DNA from: Eledone cirrhosa
Lineage: Eukaryota
DNA length: 29,827 bases
NCBI GenBank assembly: GCA_964016885.1
Contig: CAXHJY010001749.1
Coordinates: 1-29,827 of the forward strand
Direction: 5' to 3'
Within the stretch, counting starts at the first letter, position 1. Every line of letters starts with the position of its first letter. The notes under the pieces are model-generated. The model searched no databases. It was given only the letters and a program-made list of their open reading frames with translations, and was not told where the DNA came from. Shown here one piece after another: positions 929 to 29,663 of the stretch. A program made the position numbers and the translations under genes.

Positions 929-1148
<220 letters not shown>

Positions 1149-1318
1149 TATGTTGATTTAAAACTGCACTATCCACAAGTGTTTTTTTAGCCTTCATATC
1201 ATGTTCTCCTGTTTTATCTGATGAAAACACAAATATTATTGCATGATGATGTTTGTTTTTGAAATGCGCATAATAAAATACATGGAACTCCTTTAACCAT
1301 CTTTTGATCTTATATTAT
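1149..1318 (+). mobile_element. Stand-alone ~170-bp hammerhead-bearing module (PLE terminal/pLTR fragment)
   Basis: Near-identical to 17078-17245 and to the reverse complement of about 6680-6826. Flanked on both sides by TA repeats. Confidence 0.8.
1203..1288 (+). ncRNA. Type I hammerhead ribozyme (family 1)
   Basis: Stem I TTTTAT/ATAAAA with outer GTTC/GAAC; CTGATGA at 1218-1224; long stem II; GAAA at 1261-1264; palindromic helix III TGCGCA; UA cleavage site predicted after 1272. Confidence 0.85.
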
Positions 1319-1346
1319 ATATATACATATATATATATATACATAC

Positions 1347-1381
<35 letters not shown>

Positions 1382-1386
1382 CATAT

Positions 1387-1477
<91 letters not shown>

Positions 1478-1505
1478 TTTATATACATATATATATACAT
1501 ATATA

Positions 1506-4161
1506 TAATTAGCGACCTCATAGTCAGGACGAGACGTACTCGACAGCAGAAGAGGACTATCCTCAGGAGAAAAATATGGAAGCTAAAGGACCCCACAGCC
1601 AAAAATAAATTTCAAAACATATTACTTGATGTTTTCGACAGTAAGGAAGAACATTTAGAGTCGGACAATATAGAGGGACAGTGGGAATTTCTGAAAGCAA
1701 ACCTGCTGTTGGCGACAGACGAAGTCTGTGGCTGGAGCAGGCCTGTAGGCAGGAGGAGAGTAACATGGTGGTGGAACAGTAAGGTGGAGGGGTCAATTAA
1801 GGCCAAAAAGCAGGCTTGGAAAGTATGCGGGATGGGGGAAGTAGAGTAGACTATCAAGTGGCCAGGAGGGAAGCTAGGAGAGAAGTGTACTTAGCAAGAA
1901 GGGAAGCTGAGGAAAGAAAGTTCAAGCATGTCCTACAACGCGATGACCAAAAACGTGAGGTGTTCAGGATTGCTAGGCAATGCGTCAGGAAAAACCGTGA
2001 TATTGTCGGGGAGAAGTGTGTACTTAACGATGATGGCATACTTGCCATCACCGACACTGATAAGAAGGTAGCTGGAAGTGTCACTATGAAAGGCTACTAA
2101 ATGAGGAGAATAAATGGGAGAAAGACAGTCTCCCCATATCGACCCAATAGAGGGACCAGCAGTGTTAGTCGAGGGGAGTATAATAAGTAAGGCAATCAAG
2201 GATATGAAGACAGGTAAGGTGGCTGGGCCTTCGGAAATAGTTGCTGAGATGCTGAAGGCATCTGGCACGGTGGGACACACCATGGTCACTCGCATAGTTA
2301 ACCATGTCGTACAGAATGGGGTTGTCCGAAGGACTGGCATAGCAGCATCATCGTTAACTGTTATAAGGGTAAAGGAGACGCCCTAGATAGGAGTAACTAT
2401 AGAGCATTAAATTAATCGACCAGGTCATGAAGGTCACGGAAAAAGTAATAGCGCAACTAATCAGAGAGAGAATTGACCTAGATGAAATGCAGTTCGGGTT
2501 TGTGTCAGGCAAAAGTACACAGACGCTCTTTTCATAGTACGACAACTACAGGAGAAGTTCCTAGCTAAAGGTAAACCCCTCTACTTAGCTTTTGTCGACT
2601 TGGAGAAAGCCTTCGACAGAGTCCCCCGCTCCATTATCTGGTGGGCTCTTAGAAAACTAGGCGTTGACGAATGGCTTGTGAGGGCTATACAAGCCATGTA
2701 TAAAGAAACAGTCAGCAAGGTTAGAATTAACAACGAATATAGTGAAGAGTTTAGCGTAAAAGTTGGCGTCCATCAGGGCTCTGTTCTCAGCCCCCCTACT
2801 ATTTATTATTGCCCTTCAGGCTATAACAGAGGAGTTCAAGACAGGCTGCCCATGGGAACTCCTATACGCAGACGACCTGACACTCATAGCGGAATCAATG
2901 GCCGAGCTAGAGAAGAAATTCCAAACATGGAAGCACGGCCTAGAGTCAAAAGGACTTAAAATTAACCTGGCTAAGACCAAAGTTCTAGTTTGTAGGAAAG
3001 AAAACAAGGCGGCGGTCCCTTCTGGGAAATGGTCGTGCTCGGTGTATAGGAAAGGCGTAGGTAGAAACTCCATTTTATGTCCTAAATGCAAAGTATGGGT
3101 GCATAAAAGATGTAGTGGGATCACAGGTAAGCTAACTAAGAACATAGATTTTACATGTGGCCGGTGTTCTGGTGCAATAAGTAGCAGCAAAGTGCCCACA
3201 AAATACTAGCTCTTTCAATTGCGCAGAGGGTTCTATAGAAATAGTGGACAGCTTCCGTTACCTGGGCGATAAAATCAGCAGTGGGGGAGGGTGCTGAAAG
3301 TACTGTAGCTAGAGTCAGAACTGGTTGGAAAAAGTTCAGAGAGCTTATACCACTATTAGCTGCTAAAGGGTTCTCCCTAAAAATGAAAGGCAGGTTGTAC
3401 GATGCCTGCATACGAACAGCAATGTTGCATGGCAGTGAGACCTGGGTATTGTGTGCAGAGGATATACGCAGACTAGAGAGGAACGAAGCTTGCATGCTCC
3501 GCTGGATGTGTAACAGTAATATACGTGAACGGCAAAGCATAAACGAACTAAGGAAAAATTAGAGATAAGAGGGATCAGATGTTGTTTACTCGAGAGAAGG
3601 CTACGTTGGTATGGACACGTGATGCGCATGAAAGTCGATAGCTGTATAACAAAGTGCAGGGCAATAAAGATAGACGGTAGCCACGAATAGGCAGACCTAG
3701 AAAAACCTGGGACGAGCTGATAAACTCCGACCCTCACACACTTACACCTCTCCAAGACAATGTCACTGGACCGAGACCTTTGGCGGGTACTCAGTAACAG
3801 AGAAGACCCGCCTTGCCAGTAGGCATCTCTAACAAAATACACCCCGTCCCGCACCACCCCCACCCATCCACACCACCCCGTCCTATGTAAAGTTATGTTG
3901 GTGCCGCGCCATCCAGGCCGAAACAATGAGATCGTGTAGGTGTCACGACAAAAAAACACACAGTCCACGCTGTAATGTGGCCGTGTAGGCAACACGGTAA
4001 AAACCTCCCAGACCACACTGTAAATGTGGTTGGTGTTAGGAAGGGCATCCAACTGTAGAAAACCTGCCAGACAGTCCTATGCGAGCAAGACAATCACTCT
4101 GCCTCAAGTGGGACTACCCCCGTCCAAACCCATGCAAGCGTGGAACACGGGCGTTAAACGT

Positions 4162-4201
<40 letters not shown>
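1506..4201 (+). mobile_element. 5'-truncated RTE-clade LINE with frameshifted RT, 3' UTR and (GAT)n tail
   Basis: ORF pieces carry RT motifs (EKAFDRVPR, GVHQGSVLSP, LLYADDL) and a Cys-rich insert. Highly similar to the reverse complement of 19352-22066. The (GAT)n tail is at about 4163-4201. Confidence 0.93.
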
Positions 4202-5053
<852 letters not shown>

Positions 5054-5354
5054 ATGTAAGTATGTATGTATACATACATACATATATGTATACAGACGTA
5101 CAGTAGCATGCATATATATATATACACATATATATATATATATATATACATATATGCACACCGGTACACATACATATATGCACGCATCAGTTTAGCCGAC
5201 GTTTATTATAACGCAGCTTTGTTCGTTTGTTTGTCAACATAAATTCAGGCTGTTCGGTTTGTTGACAAACAAACGAACAAAGCTGCGTTATAATAAACGT
5301 CGGCTAAACTGATGCGTGCATATATGTATGTGTACCTGTGTGCATATATGTATA

Positions 5355-5393
<39 letters not shown>

Positions 5394-5852
5394 ATATATA
5401 TATGCATGCTACTGTACGTCTGTATACATATATGTATGTACGTATACATACATACTTACATTTAAGTAAGTGCCATACTAAGAGTGAGAAATGAAATTTC
5501 GTTTCATTTTTTTCAACTTATCGTTTTCGGTATGCCTGAACCGATTAACTCACTCAATATGCAAATTAGGCTGCTCAGCCGTTAATTTTCATAAGGAAAG
5601 TATATACTTTCGAACGTTCAACTATCTGGCAGATGGGTAAACGGTGCTGATGATAGCTAACAAGCTTGAAACTAGTACATCGTTCCTGTGTCAGTGTTGA
5701 ACAAAAAGGTGACGTGGTTGCTTAAAACCGTATGGCATAAATTCAGGCTGTTCTGTTTGTTGACAAACAAACGAACAAAGCTGCGATATAATAAACGTCG
5801 GCTAAACTGATGCGTGCATATATGTATGTGTACCTGTGTGCATATATGTATA

Positions 5853-6589: not shown

Positions 6590-6883
6590 ATGTAGGAGGT
6601 GAGTTTTATTGTAGTACAATAAAGCAATGCAGATATCGGATAAGAAGCACTCTACAGTTTGTAGGACTGGAGTATACATAATATATAAGAACAAAAGATG
6701 TTAAAAGAGTTCCATGTATTTTATTATGCGCATTTCAAAAACAAATATCATCATGCAATAATATTTGTGTTTTCATCAGATAAAACAGGAAGACATGATA
6801 TGAAGGTTAAAAAACACTTGTGGATATGTTGATTTAAAACTGCACTATCCACAAGTGTTTTTTAACCTTCATATCATGTCTCC

Positions 6884-6884
<1 letters not shown>
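6590..6884 (-). mobile_element. Hammerhead module (family 1) with extra 3' sequence and a 5' inverted segment
   Basis: Reverse complement of the 1149-1318 module plus about 90 bp of additional downstream sequence containing AATAAA. Arms 6787-6826 and 6846-6884 are inverted repeats. Confidence 0.78.
6709..6794 (-). ncRNA. Type I hammerhead ribozyme (family 1)
   Basis: Minus-strand CTGATGA (plus TCATCAG 6773-6779), GAAA (6736-6733), TGCGCA-TA and stem I TTTTAT/ATAAAA. A stem II G-U pair of the other two copies is A-U here. Confidence 0.85.
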
Positions 6885-7097: not shown

Positions 7098-7671
7098 TGT
7101 ATAACAAAGTGCAGGGCAATAAAGATAGACGGTAGTCACGGAATAGGCAGACCTAGAAAAACCTGGGACGAGCTGATAAACTCCGACATCACACACTTAC
7201 ACCTCTCCAAGACAATGTCACTGGACCGAGACCTTTGGCGGTACTCAGTAACAGAGAAGACCCGCCTTACCTAAATATATAGTAAAACCTACTCCAGCCA
7301 GTAGGCATCTCTAACAAAATACACCCCGTCCCACCACCCCCACCCGATCCACACCACCCCGTTCTATGTAAAGTTATGTTGGTGCCGCGCCATCGAGGCC
7401 GAAACAAATGAGATCGTGTAGGTGTCACGACAAAAAAAACACACAGTCCACGCTGTAATGTGGCCGTGTAGGCAACACGGTAAAAACCTCCCAGACCCAC
7501 ACTGTAAATGTGGTTGGTGTTAGGAAGGGCCTCCAACTGTAGAAAACCTGCCAGACAGTCCTATGCGAGCAAGACAATCACTCTTGCCTCAAGTGGGACT
7601 ACCCCCGTCCAAACCCATGCAAGCGTGGAACACGGACGTTAAACGTTGATGATGATGATGATGATGATGAT
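7098..7671 (+). mobile_element. 3' fragment of RTE LINE (ORF C-terminus, 3' UTR, (GAT)n tail)
   Basis: Encodes [23 protein letters not shown]...TEKTRLT*. Nearly identical to the reverse complement of 19352-19925. Confidence 0.93.
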
Positions 7672-10618
<2,947 letters not shown>

Positions 10619-10983
10619 GGAGGCACATGGAGGCACATGGAGGCACATGGCTTAGTGGTTAGAGCATTGGGCTTGCAATCGAAAGGTTGTGAGTTCAATT
10701 CTCAGACCGGGTGATGTGTTGTTTCCTTGAGCAAGACACTTTATTTCACATTGCTCCAGTTTACTCAGCTGTAGAAATGAGATGATAGGGGCTGGGGTCC
10801 CTATCATTCCACTGCAAGTGGTCGTGGAGGTGCCACGGCAAAAAAGCACCCAGCACTCACTGTAAATGAGGTTGGTGTTAGGAAGGGCATCCAGCTGTAG
10901 AAAATCAAGCCAGCATCAGTTCCCGTCCCACCCTTGCAAGCAGGGAAAAAGCGGACGTAAAATGAAATGATGATGATGATGAT
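10619..10983 (+). mobile_element. tRNA-derived SINE with RTE-like 3' tail
   Basis: A-box TGGCTTAGTGG at 10648-10658 and B-box GTTCAATTC at 10693-10701. Central CCTTGAGCAAGACAC motif. The 3' part is homologous to the RTE 3' UTR and ends in (GAT)n. A second copy lies at 29343-29663. Confidence 0.88.
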
Positions 10984-11569: not shown

Positions 11570-13051
11570 TTATACTTCTCTTAGGTCAGTGTTGTTTGTT
11601 TGGGTGTTGTTGTTGTTCCACTCATTCTTTCTGTTTAGCTTTGGTCTTCTAATTTCTATTTCACTGGCCTCTCTGATTTGCCTATCTGCTGGGTCATTCC
11701 TATGTTTAGATATTATTCTAATTTCTATGTTGTCTATGTTACCGTCATGTTGTTGTCTAGCATGTTCGTATAGTACTGACCCGTTTTTTCGTCCTTTTAG
11801 TTCCCCCCAGTGTTGGTCTATCCTTTCACCTATGCTACGAGCTGTCTCACCTATGTATGTTGTTGTCGTGTTTCTGCAAGTACCCTCTGTACATCTTATG
11901 CTATAGACTACGTTTCTAGTTTTACAGTTTATCCGGGGGTTCACCTTACATATGATACATTTCCTATTGGTACAGTGGGTTTTCTTAAAAGGGTAGGTTT
12001 TGCTGATCAGGGATTTTATGGTGGTTCCTGGCTTTTCTACCACCTTTATTTTTAAGTGGGTCTTTCTCAGGGCCTTTCTACACTGGTTAGCTAATTTCCC
12101 TCCAGGGGTGGCGTCCACAAACATGACACTCTGATATCTCTGGTTGTCGTACCATGATGTGGCCTTCCCTATCTTATGTCTAGCCCTATCTAAGCTATTC
12201 CATGATTTGCTCCTGTATAGTGGGCAAATTCCTTTCATGTCCAGTTCTATGAGGGTCTTATACTTTTCCATGGCTCCTTCGTATACTCTGACTCTGTCTC
12301 TTTGGTTGTAGCCAGAGAACTGCATGCGGTTGATGAAGTGTTGGATGTGTCCTTCCATTTCTGTTGGGTCGCACATGCTGGACACATTCTTCATCACTCG
12401 TACCAAATCTGCGATCAGAATATTAAACTTAGCACTACTGGACATTGCTGAGTTTTTGAGTATCAGGTATTTGGAGGCCATGGGTTTAGCATAGTGTGAG
12501 TGGAGAATTTGGGCTCTCTCGTCTATAGTGTTAATCCAGAGTTCTGTGTCTAATACAGGTAGTCTATTGTTAGGGTGTTTGGAAGGGAAGTCTATAGTTA
12601 CAGTTATACTCTGGTGTATGGAATTAGCTATCTGCTGGATGCTTTCCATCGTGCTACGTTCTAAATCAAACTTGTTAGTGCTCTCTAGTGGGGGTGTTCT
12701 TATAACTATATTGATATCGTCTACATAACGAGAGTACATGATGAGGTCTATGGAGCATTCATTAAGGAGATCTTTAAGTCTCCTTTCCCACCATACCATG
12801 AAAAGGTTGGCAACATCACCAGCTATGCTGACGCCGATGGCTGCTCCCTCATTTTGGGTGTAGATTTTCTCATTGAACTTAAATATGTGGCCCTTTAGGG
12901 TAGTTTTGATACTAGCCCCTATTGCATGTGCGACCATTTTTCTTACCTGATCAGTGTTTTGGGGGGTCCGTATAGCTTTGGTCCACCCAATCCACTTTCC
13001 TATGGGAGTCTTTTTAGCCATTGAGGTTATGGTGGGGGGTCTACCTCTCAT
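11570..13051 (-). CDS. PLE reverse transcriptase C-terminal half + GIY-YIG endonuclease (partial ORF)
   Basis: QNEGAAIG (RT motif B'), YSRYVDD (motif C), LPVLD, HYAKP, and a Cys-rich linker CTNRKCIIC. The endonuclease reads NVVYSIRC-x4-C...YIGET...R...H...EHARQQH...E...LN, i.e. GIY-YIG with CCHH residues. Confidence 0.9.
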   Translation of the reverse strand: MRGRPPTITSMAKKTPIGKWIGWTKAIRTPQNTDQVRKMVAHAIGASIKTTLKGHIFKFNEKIYTQNEGAAIGVSIAGDVANLFMVWWERRLKDLLNECSIDLIMYSRYVDDINIVIRTPPLESTNKFDLERSTMESIQQIANSIHQSITVTIDFPSKHPNNRLPVLDTELWINTIDERAQILHSHYAKPMASKYLILKNSAMSSSAKFNILIADLVRVMKNVSSMCDPTEMEGHIQHFINRMQFSGYNQRDRVRVYEGAMEKYKTLIELDMKGICPLYRSKSWNSLDRARHKIGKATSWYDNQRYQSVMFVDATPGGKLANQCRKALRKTHLKIKVVEKPGTTIKSLISKTYPFKKTHCTNRKCIICKVNPRINCKTRNVVYSIRCTEGTCRNTTTTYIGETARSIGERIDQHWGELKGRKNGSVLYEHARQQHDGNIDNIEIRIISKHRNDPADRQIREASEIEIRRPKLNRKNEWNNNNTQTNNTDLREV

Positions 13052-14770
13052 CACAGCAAACGAGAGAGATGACTTCATGAGCGTCATCCGACGCGAAACG
13101 AAATATGCTCAAAACGAATGCTGTAGGCATTTCAAGAAGAAATTAGAATGGATGAATAAGGAAAAACTACAAGAAAGGAAAATCGAATATTCTCAAAAAT
13201 ACCCAGATAACATCGACAACATCCGTATGAGTGATGTAAAACTACCGGAAGAATTTACCAATGACCACACAGTAAATATCTATGGGAACACTTTAATCAG
13301 TGAACAAGAACAACAAATCCTAAAGTTACCACCAAAATTTGCCATCTACAAAAAGATTAACCCTATGGAATGCAAAACGGAGCTGGAAAAGTGTTTCACA
13401 AAAATACGTTGGAATGCAAAGGTAAACAACAACAACAATAATAACGGTAGTAGTAATATAAACAATAACTCTGGGTATAGAAATAACAGCCATAACCATA
13501 ACAATGGCAGGAAAGTGAGAAATAGTGATAATGGTAATAATACTAGCGATAGACAGAACAACAACAACCACAATAATAATAATAATAGAAACGTTAACCA
13601 CAGACACAGCAACAGTGACCACAGTAGTAATGACGGTAACAATACGAACAACAACAACAACAATAACCACAGTGGTAATAATGGAAATAGTACATGTAGC
13701 AACATCAACAAAAACAAGAAACATAATAATAGTAACAACCACAATGGTAGAAATAGCAGTAACAACAACAACAATAACGGTGAAGTAAACAACAATACAT
13801 CTAGCAATCATAACAATAATAATATTAATGCTAATGATAGAAACAACAACAACCACCATGATAACAATAATAGCAACACACACAACTATGACGATAGAAA
13901 TAACGACAACCCCTTAGAGAAACTATTTTTCAACCCAGCTGACAAAACATATAAGATGGGTAATATCTATCCTACGAGGTTACCCTTTAATAAAAGAGTT
14001 TGCATACCACAGCAAATAGATGACGAGACGGAGGCACAGTTCACCATAGCTAGAAATAAGATTAGACAAGTAGTAGACAGGTACACTATGAGACAGAGCA
14101 GACCAGAGGCCCAACAACTTGGGATAAAACCTGTAGAAGGCTTGGTTAGCCTCAAGCAGCGCACAAGGGATGGTGAGGTAGTGTGTCTACCCACAGATAA
14201 GTCCGGTAGGATGTCAATAGATAGCATGCCGAACTACATCGAGGCAATGCAACCCCACATCACCAACACGAGCGAAGTTGCACAACTAACACACGATGGG
14301 AGAGAAAAAATCCTCAACGCTCACATGATGATGTGGACTGACATCCTAAAGCCAAGCAGACGCACTGCCAACAACTTCCAGGCGTCTAACAATGGCATAC
14401 CACCCTTGTATGGGCTCCGCAAAGACCACAAGACAGTCGACGACCCGACAACAGGACCACCAACAAGACCCGTATGCGGAGCTAATATAGCTAGCAACTA
14501 CAGGATCTCCTACTTCCTCTCAATGGTTATACGCCCCATAATCAAGATGTCCCCAGATGTATGTGAAAGTACAGAGGACCTCCTCAGCAGAATCAGTGAG
14601 TGCAACAAAAACAGGAGCCTATCCAACTGCATAATAGGCAGCATGGATGTGGTGTCACTGTACCCATCCATTAACATTGATTTTGCTGTGAAAAGATGTG
14701 TGGAGATGATCATTGAGAGTGAGGTGGAGTTCTGCGACGTCGACACAGACGAACTGGGCCTCCTACTTAT
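13048..14770 (+). CDS. PLE ORF N-terminal half (Asn-rich insert, RT motifs 1, 2 and A; partial ORF)
   Basis: ILKLPPKFA...KIRW, PTDKSGR, LYGLRKDHK, PPTRPVCG and SMDVVSLYPSI are typical PLE N-terminal/RT motifs. Similarity ends at DTDELGLL. The ORF-track ends (12954 and 14837) run into neighbouring sequence. Confidence 0.88.
13425..13910 (+). repeat. In-frame (AAC/AAT)-rich low-complexity tract encoding ~160 aa of Asn-rich sequence
   Basis: Directly visible, with no stop codons in the PLE frame. Confidence 0.9.
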
Positions 14771-14943
14771 GTATATGTTAAGAAGGATTTTACAAGGTGA
14801 AGATAGAAAGAGGGTAATGAGTAAACAAGTATTATAGAGTGTATAATGCCCTTTGAAGTAAGGTAGGAAGATGGGTATATTTTAAAGAAGTGTATGTATA
14901 TGTGCCTTTGAGAAAAGATTCTAAATTGATAAAGAATTGAATA

Positions 14944-15318
14944 TTAACTGTATACTTTGTGAAAAGTCCTATGGAATTTATGCAGGCAGATAGAAAACAA
15001 ATCTGTACGTCTATTTATTATAGAATCTAGATTAGAGATAATGGTAAATTTTTCATTTAGGCAGAGATTACAGATTTTAGATAGAGAGCTGTTCAAGTAT
15101 GAGGATGCAGGAGAAACCTTCTTCCAAAAGATGGTATATTTAATGTTTTTGTCTTTCAAGGACCATATGAGTTCTGAGAGAGCCGTGTTGGTTCTTTTAA
15201 GTTTGTATTTGAAAGATGAATGGTGATTATAGAGACGAGCTTTAAAAGAGGTGGAAGTGGAGCCAAAATAGGTGAAGGAATTGGTGCTAGTTATAACTTT
15301 ACATTCATAAATTAAGTT
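14944..15318 (-). pseudogene. GIY-YIG endonuclease domain fragment (inverted copy)
   Basis: NLIYECKV...TYFGST...FKARLYNH...LSELIWSLK...CNLCLNEK...INRRTDLFSICLH*. Confidence 0.8.
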
Positions 15319-15322
15319 TTTA

Positions 15323-15697
15323 AACTTAATTTATGAATGTAAAATTATAACTAGCACCAACTCCTTCACCTATTTTGGCTCCACTTCCACCTCTTTTAAA
15401 GCTCGTCTCTATAATCATCATTCATCTTTCAAATACAAACTTAAAAGAACTAACACTGCTCTCTCAGAACTCATATGGTCCTTAAAAGACAAAAACATTA
15501 AATATAACATCTTTTGGAAAAAGATTTCTTCTGCATCCTCGTACTTGAACAGTTCTCTATCTAAAATCTGTAATCTCTGCCTAAATGAAAAATTTACCAT
15601 TATCTCTAACCTAGAATCCATAATAAATAGACGCTCGGATTTGTTTTCCATCTGCCTGCATAAATTCCATAGAACTTTTCACAAAGTATACAGTTAA
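15323..15697 (+). pseudogene. GIY-YIG endonuclease domain fragment of a PLE (no start codon, absent from the ORF track)
   Basis: An open frame of 124 codons reads NLIYECKIITSTNSFTYFGSTSTSFKARLYNHHSSF...CNLCLNEK...CLHKFHRTFHKVYS*. Confidence 0.82.
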
Positions 15698-16138
15698 TAT
15701 TCAATTCTTTATCAATTTAGAATCTTTTCTCAAAGGCACATATACATACACCTCTTTAAAATATACCCATCTACCTTACTTTAAAGGGCATTATACACTC
15801 TATAGTACTCGTTTACTCATTTACCTCATCCTATCTTCTCGTAAAACAATAACATTTGTTTTTGACATTTTGAATATTCATCCGCAATCATTATTATTTT
15901 TTTTCCCTCTATCATAAATCTTTTTAATCTCAATTTCATCCTTAATTTATTATTATATATTTTTTTTAATATATACTCATATATTCTTTAAAATATACCC
16001 ATCTACCTTACTTTAAAGGGCATTATACACTCTATAATACCCGTTTACTCATCACCCTCATTATATCTCCTCGTAAAACAATAACATTTGTTTTTGACAT
16101 TTTGAGTATTCATCCGCAATCATTATTATTTTTTCTCT

Positions 16139-16324
16139 GGGTGGTGGATTGGCAGTATCGGTAGAGGGTCGGACGCCATGCTTTCCAGCATAGTTACGTC
16201 CCTTTATGATCTGAGTTCAAATCCCGCCGAGGTTGACTTTGCCTTTCATCCTTACGGGGTCGATAAAATAAAGTACCAGTAATGCACTGGGTAATTTGCT
16301 GGCCTTGTGCCTAAAGTAGAAACA
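16139..16324 (+). mobile_element. tRNA-derived SINE (second family) with 17-bp target-site duplication
   Basis: A-box-like TGGCAGTATCGG, B-box GAGTTCAAATCC and central GCCTTTCATCCTTACGGGGTCGATAAA. The TSD ATTATTATTTTTTCTCT is at 16122-16138 and 16325-16341. Confidence 0.88.
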
Positions 16325-17131
16325 ATTATTATTTTTTCTCTCTATCATAAATCTTTTTAATCTCAATTTCATCCTTAATTTATTATTATTTTTTTCTCCC
16401 CATCAACGAACTCATTATTAATACATATGAATTCAATATAAAAACTTTAACTTCACATTATTTTTCTCAAATCCTATACATAAACTTTTTCTCTTTGCTA
16501 ATTTTAAAATTCCTACATTTCTCCTTTTGAATATTCACCCACAATTATTATTTTTTTTTTTTTTTCTCTCTATCTCCATACATAATCTCCCTTCGTTATT
16601 TTTTTCTCTCTATCTCCATACATAATTTCCCTTCGTTAATTTTCAAATTCCTTTAATTTATACATTATCTTCCAACGGTTCCCAACCTCTCTATATTAAA
16701 ACATTATATCTTTTTCTCAGTTATAAAAACTATCTCTTTCTCTCTATCACCCATCTCTCCCTTTCCACCTTCACTCTCATCTCCTCCCCTTTTTTTTCAT
16801 CCTTTCCACCCCCACCCCTCCCTAAATATAATATATTTTTTCCTCGCACATATCCTCCCTTCGTTAATTTTCAAAATTTTTAATTTATACAGTATCTTCC
16901 AACGGTTTTCAACCCCTCTATATAAAATATATCTCCTCTCTGTTATAAAAACTATCTCTTTCTCTCTATCACCCATCTCTCCCTCTCATCTCCTTCCCTT
17001 TTCATCCTTTTCTCTCCCCCCCTCTCTAAATAAAATATTTTTCCCAATATCACACATCAATCTAAAACCACTTTTCATATGTTGATTTAAAACTGCACTA
17101 TCAACAAGTGTTTTTTTAGCCTTCATATCAT

Positions 17132-17217
17132 GTTCTCCTGTTTTATCTGATGAAAACACAAATATTATTGTTTGATGATGTTTGTTTTTGAAATGCGCAT
17201 AATAAAATATATTGAAC
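17132..17217 (+). ncRNA. Type I hammerhead ribozyme (family 1) at the PLE 3' end
   Basis: CTGATGA at 17147-17153, GAAA at 17190-17193, TGCGCA-TA, and stem I TTTTAT/ATAAAA. Confidence 0.85.
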
Positions 17218-17245
17218 TCCTTTAACCATCTTTTGATCTTATATT

Positions 17246-18322
<1,077 letters not shown>

Positions 18323-19351: not shown

Positions 19352-19750
19352 ATCATCACCATCATCATCATCAACGTTTAACGTCCGTGTTCCACGCTTT
19401 CATGGGTTTGGACGGGGGTAGTCCCACTTGAGGCAAGAGTGATTGTCTTGCTCGCATAGGACTGTCTGGCAGGTTTTCTACAGTTGGATGCCCTTCCTAA
19501 CACCAACCACATTTACAGTGTGGGTCTGGGAGGTTTTTACCGTGTTGCCTACACGGCCACATTACAGCGTGGACTGTGTGTTTTTTTGTCGTGACACCTA
19601 CACGATCTCATTTGTTTCGGCCTCGATGGCGCGGCACCAACATAACTTTACATAGAACGGGGTGGTGTGGATCGGGTGGGGGTGGTGGTGGTGGGACGGG
19701 GTGTATTTTGTTAGAGATGCCTACTGGCTGGAGTAGGTTTTACTATATAT

Positions 19751-22700
19751 TTAGGTAAGGCGGGTCTTCTCTGTTACTGAGTACCGCCAAAAGTCTCGGT
19801 CCAGTGACATTGTCTTGGAGAGGTGTAAGTGTGTGATGTCGGAGTTTATCAGCTCGTCCCAGGTTTTTCTAGGTCTGCCTATTCCGTGACTACCGTCTAT
19901 CTTTATTGCCCTGCACTTTGTTATACAGCTATCGACTTTCATGCGCATCACGTGTCCATACCAACGTAGCCTTCTCTCGAGTAAACAACATCTGATCCCT
20001 CTTATCTCTAATTTTTTCCTTAGTTCGTTTATGCTTTGCCGTTCACGTATATTACTGTTACACATCCAGCGGAGCATGCAAGCTTCGTTCCTCTCTAGTC
20101 TGCGTATATCCTCTGCACACAATGCCCAGGTCTCACTGCCATGCAGCATTGCTGTTCGTATGCAGGCATCGTACAACCTGCCTTTCATTTTTAGTGAGAA
20201 CCCTTTAGCAGCTAATAGTGGTATAAGCTCTCTGAACTTTTTCCAACCAGTTCTGACTCTAGCTACAGTACTTTCAGAGCACCCTCCCCCACTGCTGATT
20301 TTATCGCCCAGGTAACGGAAGCTGTCCACTATTTCTATAGAACCCTCTGCGCAATTGAAAGAGCTAGTAGTTTGTGGGCACTTGCTGCTACTTATTGCAC
20401 CAGAGCACCGGCCACATGTAAAATCTATGTTCTTAGTTAGCTTACCTGTGATCCCACTACATCTTTTATGCACCCATACTTTGCATTTAGGACATAAAAT
20501 GGAGTTTCTACCTACGCCTTTCCTACACACCAAGCACGACCATTTCCCAGAAGGGACCGCCGCCTTGTTTTCTTTCCTACAAACTAGTACTTTGGTCTTA
20601 GCCAGGTTAATTTTAAGTCCTTTTGACTCTAGGCCGTGCTTCCATGTTTGGAATTTCTTCTCTAGCTATGATTCCGCTATGAGTGTCAGGTCGTCTGCGT
20701 AAAGGAGTTCCCATGGGCAGCCTGTCTTGAACTCCTCTGTTATAGCCTGAAGGGCAATAATAAATAGTAGTGGACTGAGAACAGAGCCCTGATGGACGCC
20801 AACTTTTACGCTAAACTCTTCACTATATTCGTTGTTAATTCTAACCTTGCTGACTGTTTCTTTATACATGGCTTGTATAGCCCTCACAAGCCATTCGTCA
20901 ACGCCTAGTTTTCTAAGAGCCCACCAGATAATGGAGCGGGGGACTCTGTCGAAGGCTTTCTCCAAGTCGACAAAAGCTAAGTAGAGGGGTTTACCTTTAG
21001 CTAGGTACTTCTCCTGTAGTTGTCGTACTATGAAAAGAGCGTCTGTGGTACTTTTGCCTGACACAAACCCGAACTGCATTTCATCTAGGTCAATTCTCTC
21101 TCTGATTAGTTGCGCTATTACTCTTTCCGTGACCTTCATGACCTGGTCGATTAATTTAATGCCTCTATAGTTACTCCTATCTAGGGCGTCTCCTTTACCC
21201 TTATAACAGTTAACGATGATGCTGCTATGCCAGTCCTTCGGAACAACCCCATTCTGTACGACTTGGTTAACTATGCGGGTGACCATGGTGTGTCCCACCG
21301 TGCCAGATGCCTTCAGCATCTCAGCAACTATTTCCGAAGGCCCAGCCGCCTTACCAGTCTTCATATCCTTGATTGCCTTACTTATTATACTCCCCTCGAC
21401 TAACACTGCTGGTCCCTCTATTGGGTCGATATGGGGGAGACTGCCTTTCTCCCAATTATTCTCCTCATTTAGAAGCCTTTCATAGTGACACTTCCAAGCT
21501 ACCTTCTTATCAGCGTCGGTGATGGCAAGTGTGCCATCGTCGTTTAGTACACACTTCTCCCCGACAATATCACGGTTTTCCTTGACGCATTGCCTAGCAA
21601 TCCTGAACACCTCACGTTTTTGGTCATCGCGTTGTAGAACATGCTTGAACTTTCTTTCCTCAGCTTCCCTTCTTGCTAAGTACACTTGTCTCCTAGCTTC
21701 CCTCCTGGCCACTTGATAGTCCTCTCTACTTCCCCCATCCCGCCATACTTTCCAAGCCTGCTTTTTGGCCTTAATTGACCCCTCCACCTTACTGTTCCAC
21801 CACCATGTTACTCTCCTCCTGCCTACAGGCCTGCTCCAGCCACAGACCTCGTCTGTCGCCAACAGCAGGTTTGCTTTCAGAAATTCCCACTCTCCCTCTA
21901 TATTGTCCGACTCTAAATGTTCTTCCTTACTGTCGAAAGCATCAAGTAATATGCTTTGAAATTTATTCCTGGCTGTGGGGTCCTTTAGCTTCCATATTTT
22001 CCTCCTGAGGATAGTCCTCTTCTGTTGTCGAGTACGTCTCGTCCTGACTATGAGGTCGCTAATTATCAGTCTATGTTGGGAGGTGCATTCTTCATGGGGG
22101 AGGGATTTAGTGTTAACAACAGACACTCTGTCACGTCTTCTGGTAAGGATATAATCTACCTGGCTTGTGTGTTCCCCGGATCTATAGGTGATCAGGTGAT
22201 TGTCACGTTTTTTGAAGTTAGTGTTACAGATAGTTAGGTTATTTGCATCACAGAATTCCAGGATTCTGGCGCCTTCCTCATTTCTAGTACCAAACCCATA
22301 GCCTCCATGGATTTCGTCGTAGCCGTCACAATGTTGTCCAACGTGACCATTTAGGTCGCCTGCGATAATTATATAGTCACTGTCGGATATTTGGGAGGTA
22401 GTTAGCATCAGTGTCTCATAGAATCTGTCTTTTATAGTGCCGGGCAGTCCGGATTGGGGTGCGTACGCAGATATTACTGTCACCGTAGTTCTATTGAGGA
22501 CAAGTCGTATTTTAATTATTCTGTCGTTCACTCTATTTACGTCTATTATCTTATCTGCCCACTTTTCTGCTACCATGATTCCTACTCCACCCAGCCCATC
22601 GTCGTTTCCCACCCAGAAAAGCTTATAACATTGTTTTTTACCCTCAATGAACCTAGCAGACCCACCCCTCCACCTGGTCTCTTGAATACAACAAACATCG

Positions 22701-23185
22701 ACCTCCTTACGTTCAAGCATTTCTACAACCTCGTTAGCGCGACCCTTTAGGGTGCCTACATTTATGGTACCAACTCTGAAGTTTTGGATTGCGTTTGGGG
22801 GTTGGGGGCGGTGAGGGGCGGGGGGCGATGGGGTTATGTTAGCCGTCCGCGGTCGAAACAATGAGGAGTGCTCGCATTCTCGTCCAAGGGGTGAATTTGT
22901 CTTTATCTTTGGCATTGTCGCTGAGCGTCCAGATTTTTCTCTCTCACCTCCACTCTCCAGGATTCCGCAGTCCATCCATCCATCATATATCGTATATCGA
23001 AAGGCAACCAGGCAAGCGATAGTATAGGCCTCTGGTTTCTGATTGGTCCGCGTAATAATACTGGTGATGCGTGGGGGCTCTGTTTTATGATTGGTCCACG
23101 TAATAGCAATGGTGGTGTGTGGGGGTGGGAGGGAGGGGTGTTGGGCAGCTAGCAAGAAGGTAATGATTGAGTGGGGTCCATGCAT
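19751..23185 (-). pseudogene. RTE APE endonuclease + reverse transcriptase ORF with one in-frame TAG
   Basis: APE motifs: GTINVGTL, CCIQETRW, AGDLNGHVG, SQVDYIL, SQHRL. RT motifs: NYRGIKL, QFGF, DLEKAFD, GVHQGSVLSP, YADD. ORFs 20666-23185 and 19751-20533 are in the same frame, separated by the stop at 20666-20668. The true start may be a downstream Met. Confidence 0.93.
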
Positions 23186-25011
23186 TTAACAAGCGATTAA
23201 CAAAAATACAAAATTTGTTCTGTTAAATACGTCCAAAAACCTACGTATTTAGCAATTAATAGAAACAGAAAATGTAGTTTGTTTTAGCGATAGATTGGCT
23301 ATTTGGACTTGATACGAATATGGATTGTTTTGAAAATACGCTAGGAGAGAGAGAGAGAGAGATGAAGTCTGTACATTACGTTTACATGAATATCGTGGGA
23401 CAGCAAGCAATGAAATGAAATTTGGCGAAGTGAATTCCTATCATATATTTATAGGGAGAGAGAGAGAGAGTGAGAGAGAGCGAGGGGAGGGGACCACATG
23501 ATGGCTGTGGGTGTTAGGCGTTTGACCGCCCCGCGCCTTCGAAGAAGGAAGAAGGAAAGGATTTTGCTTTTTTGTTTTGAAGATACGCTAGAATTAGGGA
23601 TTGGGGTTTGAAAATACGTTAGGAATTAAGGTTTGAAAATAGCTAGCAAGAAGGTAATGATTGAGTGGGGTCCATGCATTTAACAAGCGATTAACAAAAA
23701 TACAAAATTTGTTCTGTTAAATACGTCCAAAAACCTACGTATTTAGCAATTAATAGAAACAGAAAATGTAGTTTGTTTTAGCGATAGATTGGCTATTTGG
23801 ACTTGATACGAAATATGGATTGTTTTGAAAATACGCTAGGAGAGAGAGAGAGAGAGATGAAGTCTGTACATTACGTTTACATGAATATCGTGGGACAGCA
23901 AGCAATGAAATGAAATTTGGCGAAGTGAATTCCTATCATATATTTATAGGGAGAGAGAGAGAGAGTGAGAGAGAGCGAGGGGAGGGGGCCACATGATGGC
24001 TGTGGGTGTTAGGCGTTTGACCGCCCCGTGCCTTCGAAGAAGGAAGAAGGAAAGGATTTTGCTTTTTTGTTTTGAAGATACGCTAGAATTAGGGATTGGG
24101 GTTTGAAAATACGTTAGGAATTAAGGTTTGAAAATAGCTAGCAAGAAGGTAATGATTGAGTGGGGTCCATGCATTTAACAAGCGATTAACAAAAATACAA
24201 AATTTGTTCTGTTAAATACGTCCAAAAACCTACGTATTTAGCAATTAATAGAAACAGAAAATGTAGTTTGTTTTAGCGATAGATTGGCTATTTGGACTTG
24301 ATACGAAATATGGATTGTTTTGAAAATACGCTAGGAGAGAGAGAGAGAGAGATGAAGTCTGTACATTACGTTTACATGAATATCGTGGGACAGCAAGCAA
24401 TGAAATGAAATTTGGCGAAGTGAATTCCTATCATATATTTATAGGGAGAGAGAGAGAGAGTGAGAGAGAGCGAGGGGAGGGGGCCACATGATGGCTGTGG
24501 GTGTTAGGCGTTTGACCGCCCCGTGCCTTCGAAGAAGGAAGAAGGAAAGGATTTTGCTTTTTTGTTTTGAAGATACGCTAGAATTAGGGATTGGGGTTTG
24601 AAAATACGTTAGGAATTAAGGTTTGAAAATAGCTAGCAAGAAGGTAATGATTGAGTGGGGTCCATGCATTTAACAAGCGATTAACAAAAATACAAAATTT
24701 GTTCTGTTAAATACGTCCAAAAACCTACGTATTTAGCAATTAATAGAAACAGAAAATGTAGTTTGTTTTAGCGATAGATTGGCTATTTGGACTTGATACG
24801 AATATGGATTGTTTTGAAAATACGCTAGGAGAGAGAGAGAGAGAGAGATGAAGTCTGTACATTACGTTTACATGAATATCGTGGGACAGCAAGCAATGAA
24901 ATGAAATTTGGCGAAGTGAATTCCTATCATATATTTATAGGGAGAGAGAGAGAGAGTGAGAGAGAGCGAGGGGAGGGGGCCACATGATGGCTGTGGGTGT
25001 TAGGCGTTTGA
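23147..25011. repeat. Tandem array of ~495-bp units (about 3.8 copies, nearly identical)
   Basis: AGCTAGCAAGAAGG starts at 23147, 23641, 24136 and 24631. The last unit is truncated at 25011. Confidence 0.95.
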
Positions 25012-25028
25012 CATATACATATATATAC

Positions 25029-29085: not shown

Positions 29086-29187
29086 TTGTTACACTTTGGG
29101 AGGGTCATGCTGCCAATAAGAAACCACCCGCACCTGGTGCTTGTGTTTTCTTATTGGCAGCATGACCCTCCCAAAGTGTAACAATAT
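29083..29187. repeat. 105-bp palindrome with 41-bp perfect arms; half-copy at 28924-28978
   Basis: Arms 29083-29123 and 29147-29187 are exact reverse complements. Confidence 0.9.
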
Positions 29188-29346: not shown

Positions 29347-29663
29347 TCATCATCATCATCATTTCATTTTACGTCCGCTTTTTCCCTGCTTGCAAGGTTG
29401 GACTTGAACTGATTCTGGCTTGATTTCTAACACCAACCTCATTTACAGTGAGTGCTGGGTGCTTTTTTGCCGTGGCACCTCCACAGCAACTTTGCAGTGG
29501 AGTGATATGGACCCCCAGTCCTATCGTCTCATTTCTACAGCTGAGTAAACTGGAGCAATGTGAAATAAAGTGTCTTGCTCAATGGAAACAACACATCACC
29601 CAGTCTGAGAATTGAACTCACAACCTTTTGATTGCAAGGCCTAATGCTCTAACCACTAAGCCA
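29343..29663 (-). mobile_element. tRNA-derived SINE with RTE-like tail (same family as 10619-10983)
   Basis: Reverse-complement match to 10648-10983 with an internal deletion, and a (GAT)n tail. Confidence 0.88.

What the first reader, a model, noticed from the sequence alone, without database searches (positions are those of the whole stretch)
1149..1318. Hammerhead mini-module that appears to move apart from its parent PLE
Seen: the same ~170-bp hammerhead module occurs three times (1149+, about 6680-6826 on the minus strand, and 17078+). At 1149 and in the inverted stub at about 6825, the sequence begins at the same TATGTTGATTTAAAACTGCAC, which suggests a defined boundary rather than random truncation. 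Established: PLE pseudo-LTRs carry type-I hammerheads. Inference: this is a very small non-autonomous ribozyme element mobilised by PLE proteins into TA repeats.
Basis: partly seen in the sequence, partly recalled or inferred. Interest (0 to 1): 0.75.

Follow-up and report, generated by a model that had tools for sequence, protein, structure and literature searches.

The report
Penelope strong-stop copies mark RNA start
This 170-base piece is the ribozyme-shaped end of a Penelope-type jumping gene, present in thousands of copies with one sharp left edge that likely marks where the element's RNA starts, so it is likely a short by-product of the parent's copying and not a separate mini-element.

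Summary
The module is real. It is the pseudo-LTR of a Hydra-type Penelope-like element (PLE); its hammerhead core has 21,797 exact copies in the genome. The left boundary is also real: 26 of 69 tail-anchored copies that reach it stop within 5 nt of it (about 28-fold over background). The base in front is most often a G (2,111 G, 1,581 T, 570 A) where the parent has C, the known mark of a copied RNA cap. The boundary is likely the transcription start, not the ribozyme cut, where ends are not enriched. An independent mini-element is not supported: short and long copies share subfamilies, solo copies like 1149 are rare (1 of 49), and most short copies are head-to-head pairs with a one-sided tail, the usual PLE layout. 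Unexpected: 0 of 43 copies carrying the leader in front of the ORF stop at this boundary. Two RNA templates seem to exist, a capped linear one and a continuous (circular or tandem) one. No RNA data were available. The scan noted a similar fixed stop in another PLE family of this genome.

The parts
1149..1318 (+). Copy A: solo pseudo-LTR arm (+2 to about +171 of the inferred transcript), no tail, TA repeat on both sides
   Evidence: same variant pattern as many long copies
1210..1280 (+). Type-I hammerhead of copy A: stem I 1210-1217/1273-1280, core CUGAUGA 1218-1224, long stem II 1225-1260, GAAA 1261-1264, palindromic helix III, predicted cut after 1272
929..1507 (.). TA-type microsatellite that holds copy A (target site)
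6823..6884 (+). Inverted stub (+1 to about +61) with G at 6823 in front of +1; overlaps arm B by 4 nt
6678..6826 (-). Copy B: pseudo-LTR arm from about +21 to +171; hammerhead core starts at 6779
6590..6677 (-). ~88-nt PLE tail of arm B (start of the parent's leader), ending at TA repeat
17077..17247 (+). Copy C: pseudo-LTR at the 3' end of a 5'-truncated PLE; +1 = 17077, preceded by the templated C; predicted cut after 17201
15311..17076 (+). Parent PLE: end of the GIY-YIG endonuclease frame (15311-15697) and 3' UTR, interrupted by another repeat at about 16139-16325
   Evidence: Pfam GIY-YIG E 0.0021, below cut-off
14799..15310 (-). Inverted arm of the same insertion as copy C (endonuclease end), cut short

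Best explanation
The module is the pseudo-LTR of a Hydra-type Penelope-like element, and the short copies are likely strong-stop DNA copies: the element's enzyme likely starts copying inside the 5' part of its own capped RNA and runs off the RNA's first base. Shown: +1 (window 1148/17077) is a sharp end of copies, often with an extra G in front. Copies end on the right at two fixed places (about +170 and about +257). Short copies mostly come as head-to-head pairs, one arm from each right-hand end, joined at +1. They pass intact through the hammerhead and occur in every subfamily sampled. Inferred: +1 is the capped transcription start. Both strands of a cut TA repeat prime copying, one at each internal start, as shown in vitro for Poseidon. 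The two short cDNAs are then joined by their ends. Copy A is a rare one-armed product. Long and ORF-bearing copies pass +1 without stopping, so they likely come from a second, continuous template. The hammerhead likely needs a second hammerhead (dimer) and does not cut the template of the short copies.
For: Boundary: 49 of 100 copies holding the first 20 nt stop there. In a sample anchored downstream of the ribozyme, 26 of 69 arms that reach +1 stop at -1..+3, against 31 ends spread over the next 167 nt (rate ratio 28). Base before +1 genome-wide: G 2,111, T 1,581, A 570, against 4,738 read-through copies with the templated C and 1,245 arm matches at perfect palindromic joints. G precedes 19 of 50 non-palindromic +1 starts against 3 of 31 random ends (p 0.005). 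An untemplated G is read as a cap mark in L1 work (PMC6425141, passages). The D. virilis Penelope start site lies in the pLTR (PMC2377424, PMC8557442, passages). One-sided tail in 25 of 26 short pairs, and 18 of the 19 found without the tail pattern. Partner arms are near-identical (median distance 0.012 against 0.062 overall). There is no short-copy lineage. Two internal starts and priming on both strands were shown for Poseidon (PMC11167929, parts 1-2 read). The dimeric hammerhead fold scores -34.1 kcal/mol against -7.1 for the active monomer.
Against: No RNA evidence for the start site or cap. About 8 of the 19 Gs can be explained by the partner arm (microhomology or its templated C). The by-eye conservative count, 11 of 50 against 3 of 31, is not significant (p 0.23). 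The simplest form of the model predicts that full-length copies also stop at +1, but 0 of 43 do, so a second template has to be added. The tree is poorly resolved (2 of 80 branches starred), so small module lineages are not excluded. One pair with no tail and a shared flank on both arms (L079) could be a re-copied genomic module. Samples come from the first listed places (mostly contig C1) and from exact-match patterns, so they favour young copies.
Confidence: 0.68

Rival explanations
1. Short copies are made in trans from short capped transcripts of the roughly 10,000 truncated, tail-bearing copies, including earlier modules. This is a mild form of the first reader's idea: non-autonomous RNAs, but from many sources and not one family.
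For: It explains why short copies stop at +1 while ORF-bearing ones never do. The Penelope promoter of D. virilis is internal, downstream of the start (PMC2377424, passages), so a module could keep it. L079 has two tail-less arms that share the same flank. Many sources would also give an interleaved tree.
Against: Tail-less arms are as common as tailed ones, yet tail-less pairs are 1 of 26. In Poseidon the RNA needed for activity extends downstream of the start sites (PMC11167929), a part that modules lack. No clear flank transduction between different loci was seen among 179 arms (read by eye).
Confidence: 0.17
2. The boundary is a DNA- or cDNA-level hotspot: the short palindrome around +1 favours fold-back or microhomology joining, with no RNA end there.
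For: There are 1,245 arm matches at perfect palindromic joints. Arkhipova et al. read palindromes at inverted PLE junctions as self-priming (PMC3846280, passages).
Against: Most +1 ends are not perfect palindromes: 50 of 81 short arms have other bases in front. G is the commonest non-template base. The same palindrome is crossed without a stop by 43 of 43 leader-bearing copies.
Confidence: 0.08
3. A distinct self-propagating ribozyme mini-element (retrozyme- or SINE-like family) derived from the pLTR.
For: Very high copy number of the module against 189-296 copies of the leader or ORF start. Fixed ends. Retrozymes are thought to derive from pLTRs (bioRxiv 10.64898/2026.07.22.740005, part 1 read).
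Against: No own lineage. No head-to-tail arrays among the first 100 listed core matches. The ends are not set by the ribozyme. The layout equals that of long PLE insertions.
Confidence: 0.07

Closest known systems
Hydra clade of C-terminal EN+ Penelope-like elements (Craig et al. 2021, PMC8557442; section 11 and passages read)
   Same: DKT motif, RW motif, no GxKF/Y, CxCX5C linker, CxxC and CxH in the endonuclease, hammerhead in the pLTR, insertion into (TA)n, inverted 5'-truncated arm with a tail on one side.
   Different: The unit is 3.7-3.9 kb, not under 3 kb. RW is followed by I or T, not K. The tail is about 88 nt, not 30-40. A sharp, G-marked 5' stop is not described in the parts read.
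Poseidon of Anolis, internal initiation of reverse transcription (Frangieh et al. 2024, PMC11167929; parts 1-2 of 4 read)
   Same: Two fixed right-hand ends that define the tail, priming on both strands, AT-rich targets, uncleaved RNA as template, no ends at the hammerhead cut.
   Different: There the ORF starts inside the hammerhead; here it starts 343 nt after +1. That study does not report where cDNAs stop on natural RNA.
Minimal or palindromic type-I hammerheads of metazoan PLEs (Cervera and de la Pena 2014, PMC4209133; parts 1-2 of 4 read)
   Same: Long helix II, tiny palindromic helix III, dimer-type architecture. Motifs close together on opposite strands and dispersed single motifs were already noted and ascribed to truncated PLEs.
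   Different: A-U instead of G10.1-C11.1 at the base of stem II, an AUA cleavage triplet, and a conserved C-U mismatch in stem II.
Metazoan non-LTR retrozymes (PMC7229834, passages; bioRxiv 10.64898/2026.07.22.740005, part 1)
   Same: 150-400 nt, AT-rich, non-coding, type-I hammerhead, PLE origin.
   Different: Retrozymes are head-to-tail arrays processed by the ribozyme into monomers and circles. These copies are head-to-head or solo and their ends lie away from the cut.
Minus-strand strong-stop DNA of LTR retroelements (recalled, no call)
   Same: A short cDNA primed near the 5' end of the RNA that runs off the capped first base.
   Different: Here it is primed by target DNA and ends up integrated, mostly in pairs. 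There is no tRNA primer.

Membership tests
Hydra-clade PLE (parent) | Single ORF with RT and C-terminal GIY-YIG | tested here: met
   [quoted passage not shown] Pfam gives only a weak GIY-YIG hit and none for the RT.
Hydra-clade PLE (parent) | DKT in place of DKG; GxKF/Y absent | tested here: met
Hydra-clade PLE (parent) | RWK motif | tested here: inconclusive
   RW present, third residue I or T
Hydra-clade PLE (parent) | CxCX5C linker, CxxC and CxH in the endonuclease | tested here: met
Hydra-clade PLE (parent) | Insertion into (TA)n | tested here: met
   164 of 179 arms are followed by a TA-type repeat
Hydra-clade PLE (parent) | Generally shorter than 3 kb (a tendency in the description, not a strict criterion) | tested here: not met
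   Unit 3,710 and 3,940 nt in L047 and L033
Hydra-clade PLE (parent) | RT phylogeny with reference Hydra families | not tested
   No reference proteins were fetched
Type-I hammerhead ribozyme | Conserved core CUGANGA, GAAA, UH with stems I-III | tested here: met
   core bases kept in at least 130 of 134 distinct arms (position 7 varies). Eight common stem I/II variants all keep pairing (one-sided changes). Part of the sample was selected with a core pattern. Rfam gives no hammerhead hit.
Type-I hammerhead ribozyme | Self-cleavage after 1272 | not testable with these tools
   No RNA run. No genomic excess of ends at the cut.
Non-LTR retrozyme | Head-to-tail tandem of at least two hammerhead units | tested here: not met
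   The first 100 core matches are single or head-to-head
Non-LTR retrozyme | Expressed as ribozyme-cut linear and circular monomers | not testable with these tools
   No RNA data
Independent non-autonomous element (SINE-like) | Own lineage with diagnostic variants | tested here: not met
   (low tree resolution)
Independent non-autonomous element (SINE-like) | Fixed 5' and 3' ends | tested here: met

The most novel reading that the evidence does not exclude
The genome records two RNA templates of one Penelope-like element. The capped, uncut primary transcript gives strong-stop pairs that end at +1. A circle, made when the two hammerheads of a partial-tandem transcript cut as a dimer and the ends are ligated, gives all long and ORF-bearing copies, which run through +1 without stopping and rebuild the upstream pseudo-LTR at a new length each time. 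This would be genomic evidence for the proposed circular-RNA route and would explain how PLE partial tandems are regenerated.
Probability: 0.3. Interest if true: 0.78.

Novelty: new member of a known kind. Interest (0 to 1): 0.5.

Why it matters
How Penelope-like elements rebuild their partial tandems, and what their hammerheads do, are stated open questions (PMC2377424, PMC8557442). This family gives a base-exact predicted RNA start, two predicted priming sites and a clear contrast: short arms stop at the start 38% of the time, leader-bearing copies 0 of 43. That makes the circle, tandem-transcript and strand-transfer models testable with one RACE/RNase R experiment. For annotation, such 170-nt hammerhead pieces should be filed as PLE ends, not as new retrozymes or MITEs.

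Tried and rejected
Rfam: only microsatellite and snoRNA noise, no hammerhead family. The repeat finder was swamped by TA repeats. Sequencing runs: no RNA holder listed; laying the four runs' contigs showed loose TA ends at the two right-hand ends, but no starts or splice joints, and may be the same sample, so it is not counted. Ends at the hammerhead cut: no excess; one leader-bearing copy (L233) and possibly one arm (L199) start there. Twin hairpins behind the two right-hand ends (lead from e1-8673755): a weak hairpin behind the first (z -0.63), none supported behind the second (z 0.55 to 1.16). Trans-splicing as the source of the G: rejected, because there is no AG acceptor before +1 and no longer leader piece. 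Simple model 'ORF mRNA copied to +1': rejected by 0 of 43. Strand transfer with the same failure rate as short arms: rejected by the same count. ORF-start-anchored extra copies (11 of 30 loci, those not in the leader set): 4 end at +254..+266, but the set is enriched there by construction and one alignment was unanchored, so it is not used. In one search the first short/long labels mis-scored the older subfamily; they were redone. Literature searches found no paper that describes a cap-marked strong stop in PLEs ('strong-stop' occurred 0 times in the 11 papers listed). The library lacks most subscription papers, and supplements were not read, including Craig et al.'s family files, which may already hold this family.

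Full report
Numbering. +1 is window 17077 in copy C and 1148 in copy A. The predicted hammerhead cut lies after +125. The two right-hand ends lie at about +170 (pLTR end) and about +257 (tail end). The parent's ATG is 343 nt after +1 in L047.

1. Observation. Three copies are present: A 1149-1318 (+), B 6826-6678 (-) and C 17077-17247 (+), plus an inverted stub 6824-6884 (+). A motif scan of both strands of the window found the hammerhead pattern three times, once per copy. B continues for about 88 nt into a tail before the TA repeat. C continues upstream into a 3' UTR and a GIY-YIG-like frame at 15311-15697, with an inverted arm at 14799-15310.

2. Parent. A 26-nt core pattern has 21,797 exact matches in the 3.0-Gb assembly, and the control pattern has 0. 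Of 20 stretches fetched around listed pairs, several hold a long RT-endonuclease frame (L031, L032, L033, L047, L049). Its motifs (DKT, RW, CxCX5C, CxxC, CxH, no GxKF/Y) match the description of the Hydra clade (PMC8557442 section 11). The unit length of 3.7-3.9 kb is longer than typical, and no RT tree was made. Only 189 copies carry the leader behind the tail and 296 the ORF start, against 10,006 tails.

3. Hammerhead. The core, an 8-bp stem I, a long stem II and a 2-bp helix III with a palindromic loop are present, and the centroid folds show stems I and II. Among 134 distinct arms, the eight common variants in stems I and II all keep pairing through A-U/G-U or U-G/C-G changes. These are one-sided changes in related sequences, and part of the sample was picked with a core pattern. 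The dimeric form is computed at -34.1 kcal/mol against -7.1 for the active monomer, in line with the dimer-type PLE hammerheads that cleave poorly in vitro (PMC4209133). Rfam has no matching family. Activity is untested.

4. The left boundary is real. Of the first 100 listed copies of the 20-mer at +3, 49 stop at the boundary and 51 read through (50 by rule, 1 by eye). To avoid bias I anchored on the tail, downstream of the ribozyme. Of the first 100 listed copies, 31 end between +5 and +171, 26 end at -1..+3, and 43 go further upstream; the rate ratio is 28. Ends within 5 nt of the cut are at background: 3 of 31, expected 2.0. So the cDNAs were made on RNA that the ribozyme had not cut.

5. 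What the boundary is. The parent has C before +1. Genome-wide, the base before the intact +1 sequence is G in 2,111 copies, T in 1,581 and A in 570. A further 4,738 read through with the parent's sequence, and 1,245 arm matches sit at perfect palindromic joints where two arms overlap by 4 nt. In 81 short arms pooled from all loci, 19 were palindromic joints, 50 began at +1 with another base in front (G 19, T 12, C 10, A 9), 10 began at +2..+5 and 2 slightly upstream. G was found before 3 of 31 random ends (p 0.005). Counting only Gs that the partner arm cannot explain gives 11 of 50 by eye (p 0.23). An untemplated G is the accepted sign of a copied cap in L1 work (PMC6425141). PLE start sites are known to lie in the pLTR (PMC2377424; PMC8557442). 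I infer that +1 is a capped transcription start. The stub in the window has this G (6823), but there it also matches arm B, so it is ambiguous. Copy A lacks +1 and starts at +2.

6. Not a separate family. Short and long arms share every variant pattern inspected, including an older subfamily (output partly cut). On a tree of 110 loci (58 long, 52 short, one arm per locus) the label needs 29 changes against 31.4-31.7 for shuffles, and 5 sets of identical rows span both classes (low resolution). Only 1 of 49 boundary copies has TA repeat on its left like copy A. Of 26 short head-to-head pairs, 25 have the tail on exactly one arm, which is the layout published for long PLE insertions (PMC8557442, PMC3846280). 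Partner arms are near-identical (median 0.012 against 0.062). The exception, L079, has two tail-less arms with the same flank; it is either a re-copied genomic module or a DNA fold-back.

7. Result against the simple model. Of 189 copies with the leader, 70 were examined (the first 70 listed). 43 reach +1 and none stops there; 27 end between +18 and +249. Against 26 of 69, p is 4e-7 (two loci are in both sets). In 17 of the 19 such copies from the first 30 that could be measured, the upstream part runs on for 18 to over 1,249 nt, each to a different length. So cDNAs that have crossed the leader do not meet an RNA end at +1. A second, continuous template is needed: a circle closed at the hammerhead cut (proposed in PMC4209133), a tandem read-through transcript, or near-perfect strand transfer on full-length RNA only. 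These data do not separate the three.

8. Mechanism. Shown: fixed ends, G excess, paired layout, shared subfamilies, no ends at the cut, no stop in leader-bearing copies. Inferred: the element's endonuclease cuts both strands of a TA repeat; each strand primes at one of two internal sites (shown in vitro for Poseidon, PMC11167929); on the capped linear transcript both cDNAs run off +1 and are joined end to end, by their 4-nt self-complementary ends or by short microhomology; on the continuous template they run on into the 3' UTR and ORF. Copy A is a one-armed product, B with its stub is an uneven pair, and C is a long arm.

9. Novelty. The family is a new member of a known kind, and the paired stubs were noted before (PMC4209133). 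I found no paper on a cap-marked strong stop or on the two-template contrast in nine searches; the library is incomplete and supplements were not read. Earlier notes of this scan report a similar fixed stop in another PLE family of this genome. They are unchecked AI notes and are not counted as support.

10. Verdict. Interest 0.5.

Noticed in passing
window 11570-14837: A second, unrelated PLE (RT plus C-terminal GIY-YIG with a Cys-rich linker) split head-to-head near 13040: C-terminal half on the minus strand, N-terminal half with an Asn-rich stretch on the plus strand. The motif scan found no standard hammerhead for it.
   Followed up: partly
window 23147-25012: Tandem of a 495-bp unit, 3.8 copies, 99% alike, just in front of an AP-endonuclease RT element on the minus strand; no hammerhead pattern in it.
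   Followed up: partly
window 5163-5336 (partial copy 5736-5834) and 29086-29184: Two unrelated near-perfect palindromic elements (174 and 99 bp) in TA repeats; MITE-like or head-to-head stubs of other families.
   Followed up: no
window 1512-4179, 7106-7664, 19356-22726, 1-925: Several copies of AP-endonuclease non-LTR retroelements, some ending in (TGA)n next to TA repeats; 1512-4179 and 19356-22059 are 96% alike.
   Followed up: no
window 10620-10982, 29347-29661 and 16139-16325: Short interspersed repeats. The first has a tRNA-like head (Rfam tRNA 31.2 bits at 10648-10705); the one at 16139-16325 interrupts the 3' UTR of copy C and recurs in many loci.
   Followed up: no
L079:730-1145; L126: Inverted pairs in which both arms carry the same flank beyond the TA repeat: either copying of a genomic copy with its flank or a DNA fold-back duplication.
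   Followed up: partly
L131, L189, L205: Junctions at +1 with short repeated restarts of the first 8-25 nt, which suggests repeated template jumps when the enzyme reaches the RNA end.
   Followed up: no
window 1149-1221 and L047 leader: An ATG at +3 opens a short upstream frame of about 23 codons that ends in the hammerhead core; the main ORF starts 343 nt after +1. A leader intron, as in other PLEs, was not tested.
   Followed up: no
L033:1523-2430; L047:5100-5340: The 3' UTR of some subfamilies carries internal tandem repeats (about 111-nt and 60-nt units) that change the unit length.
   Followed up: no
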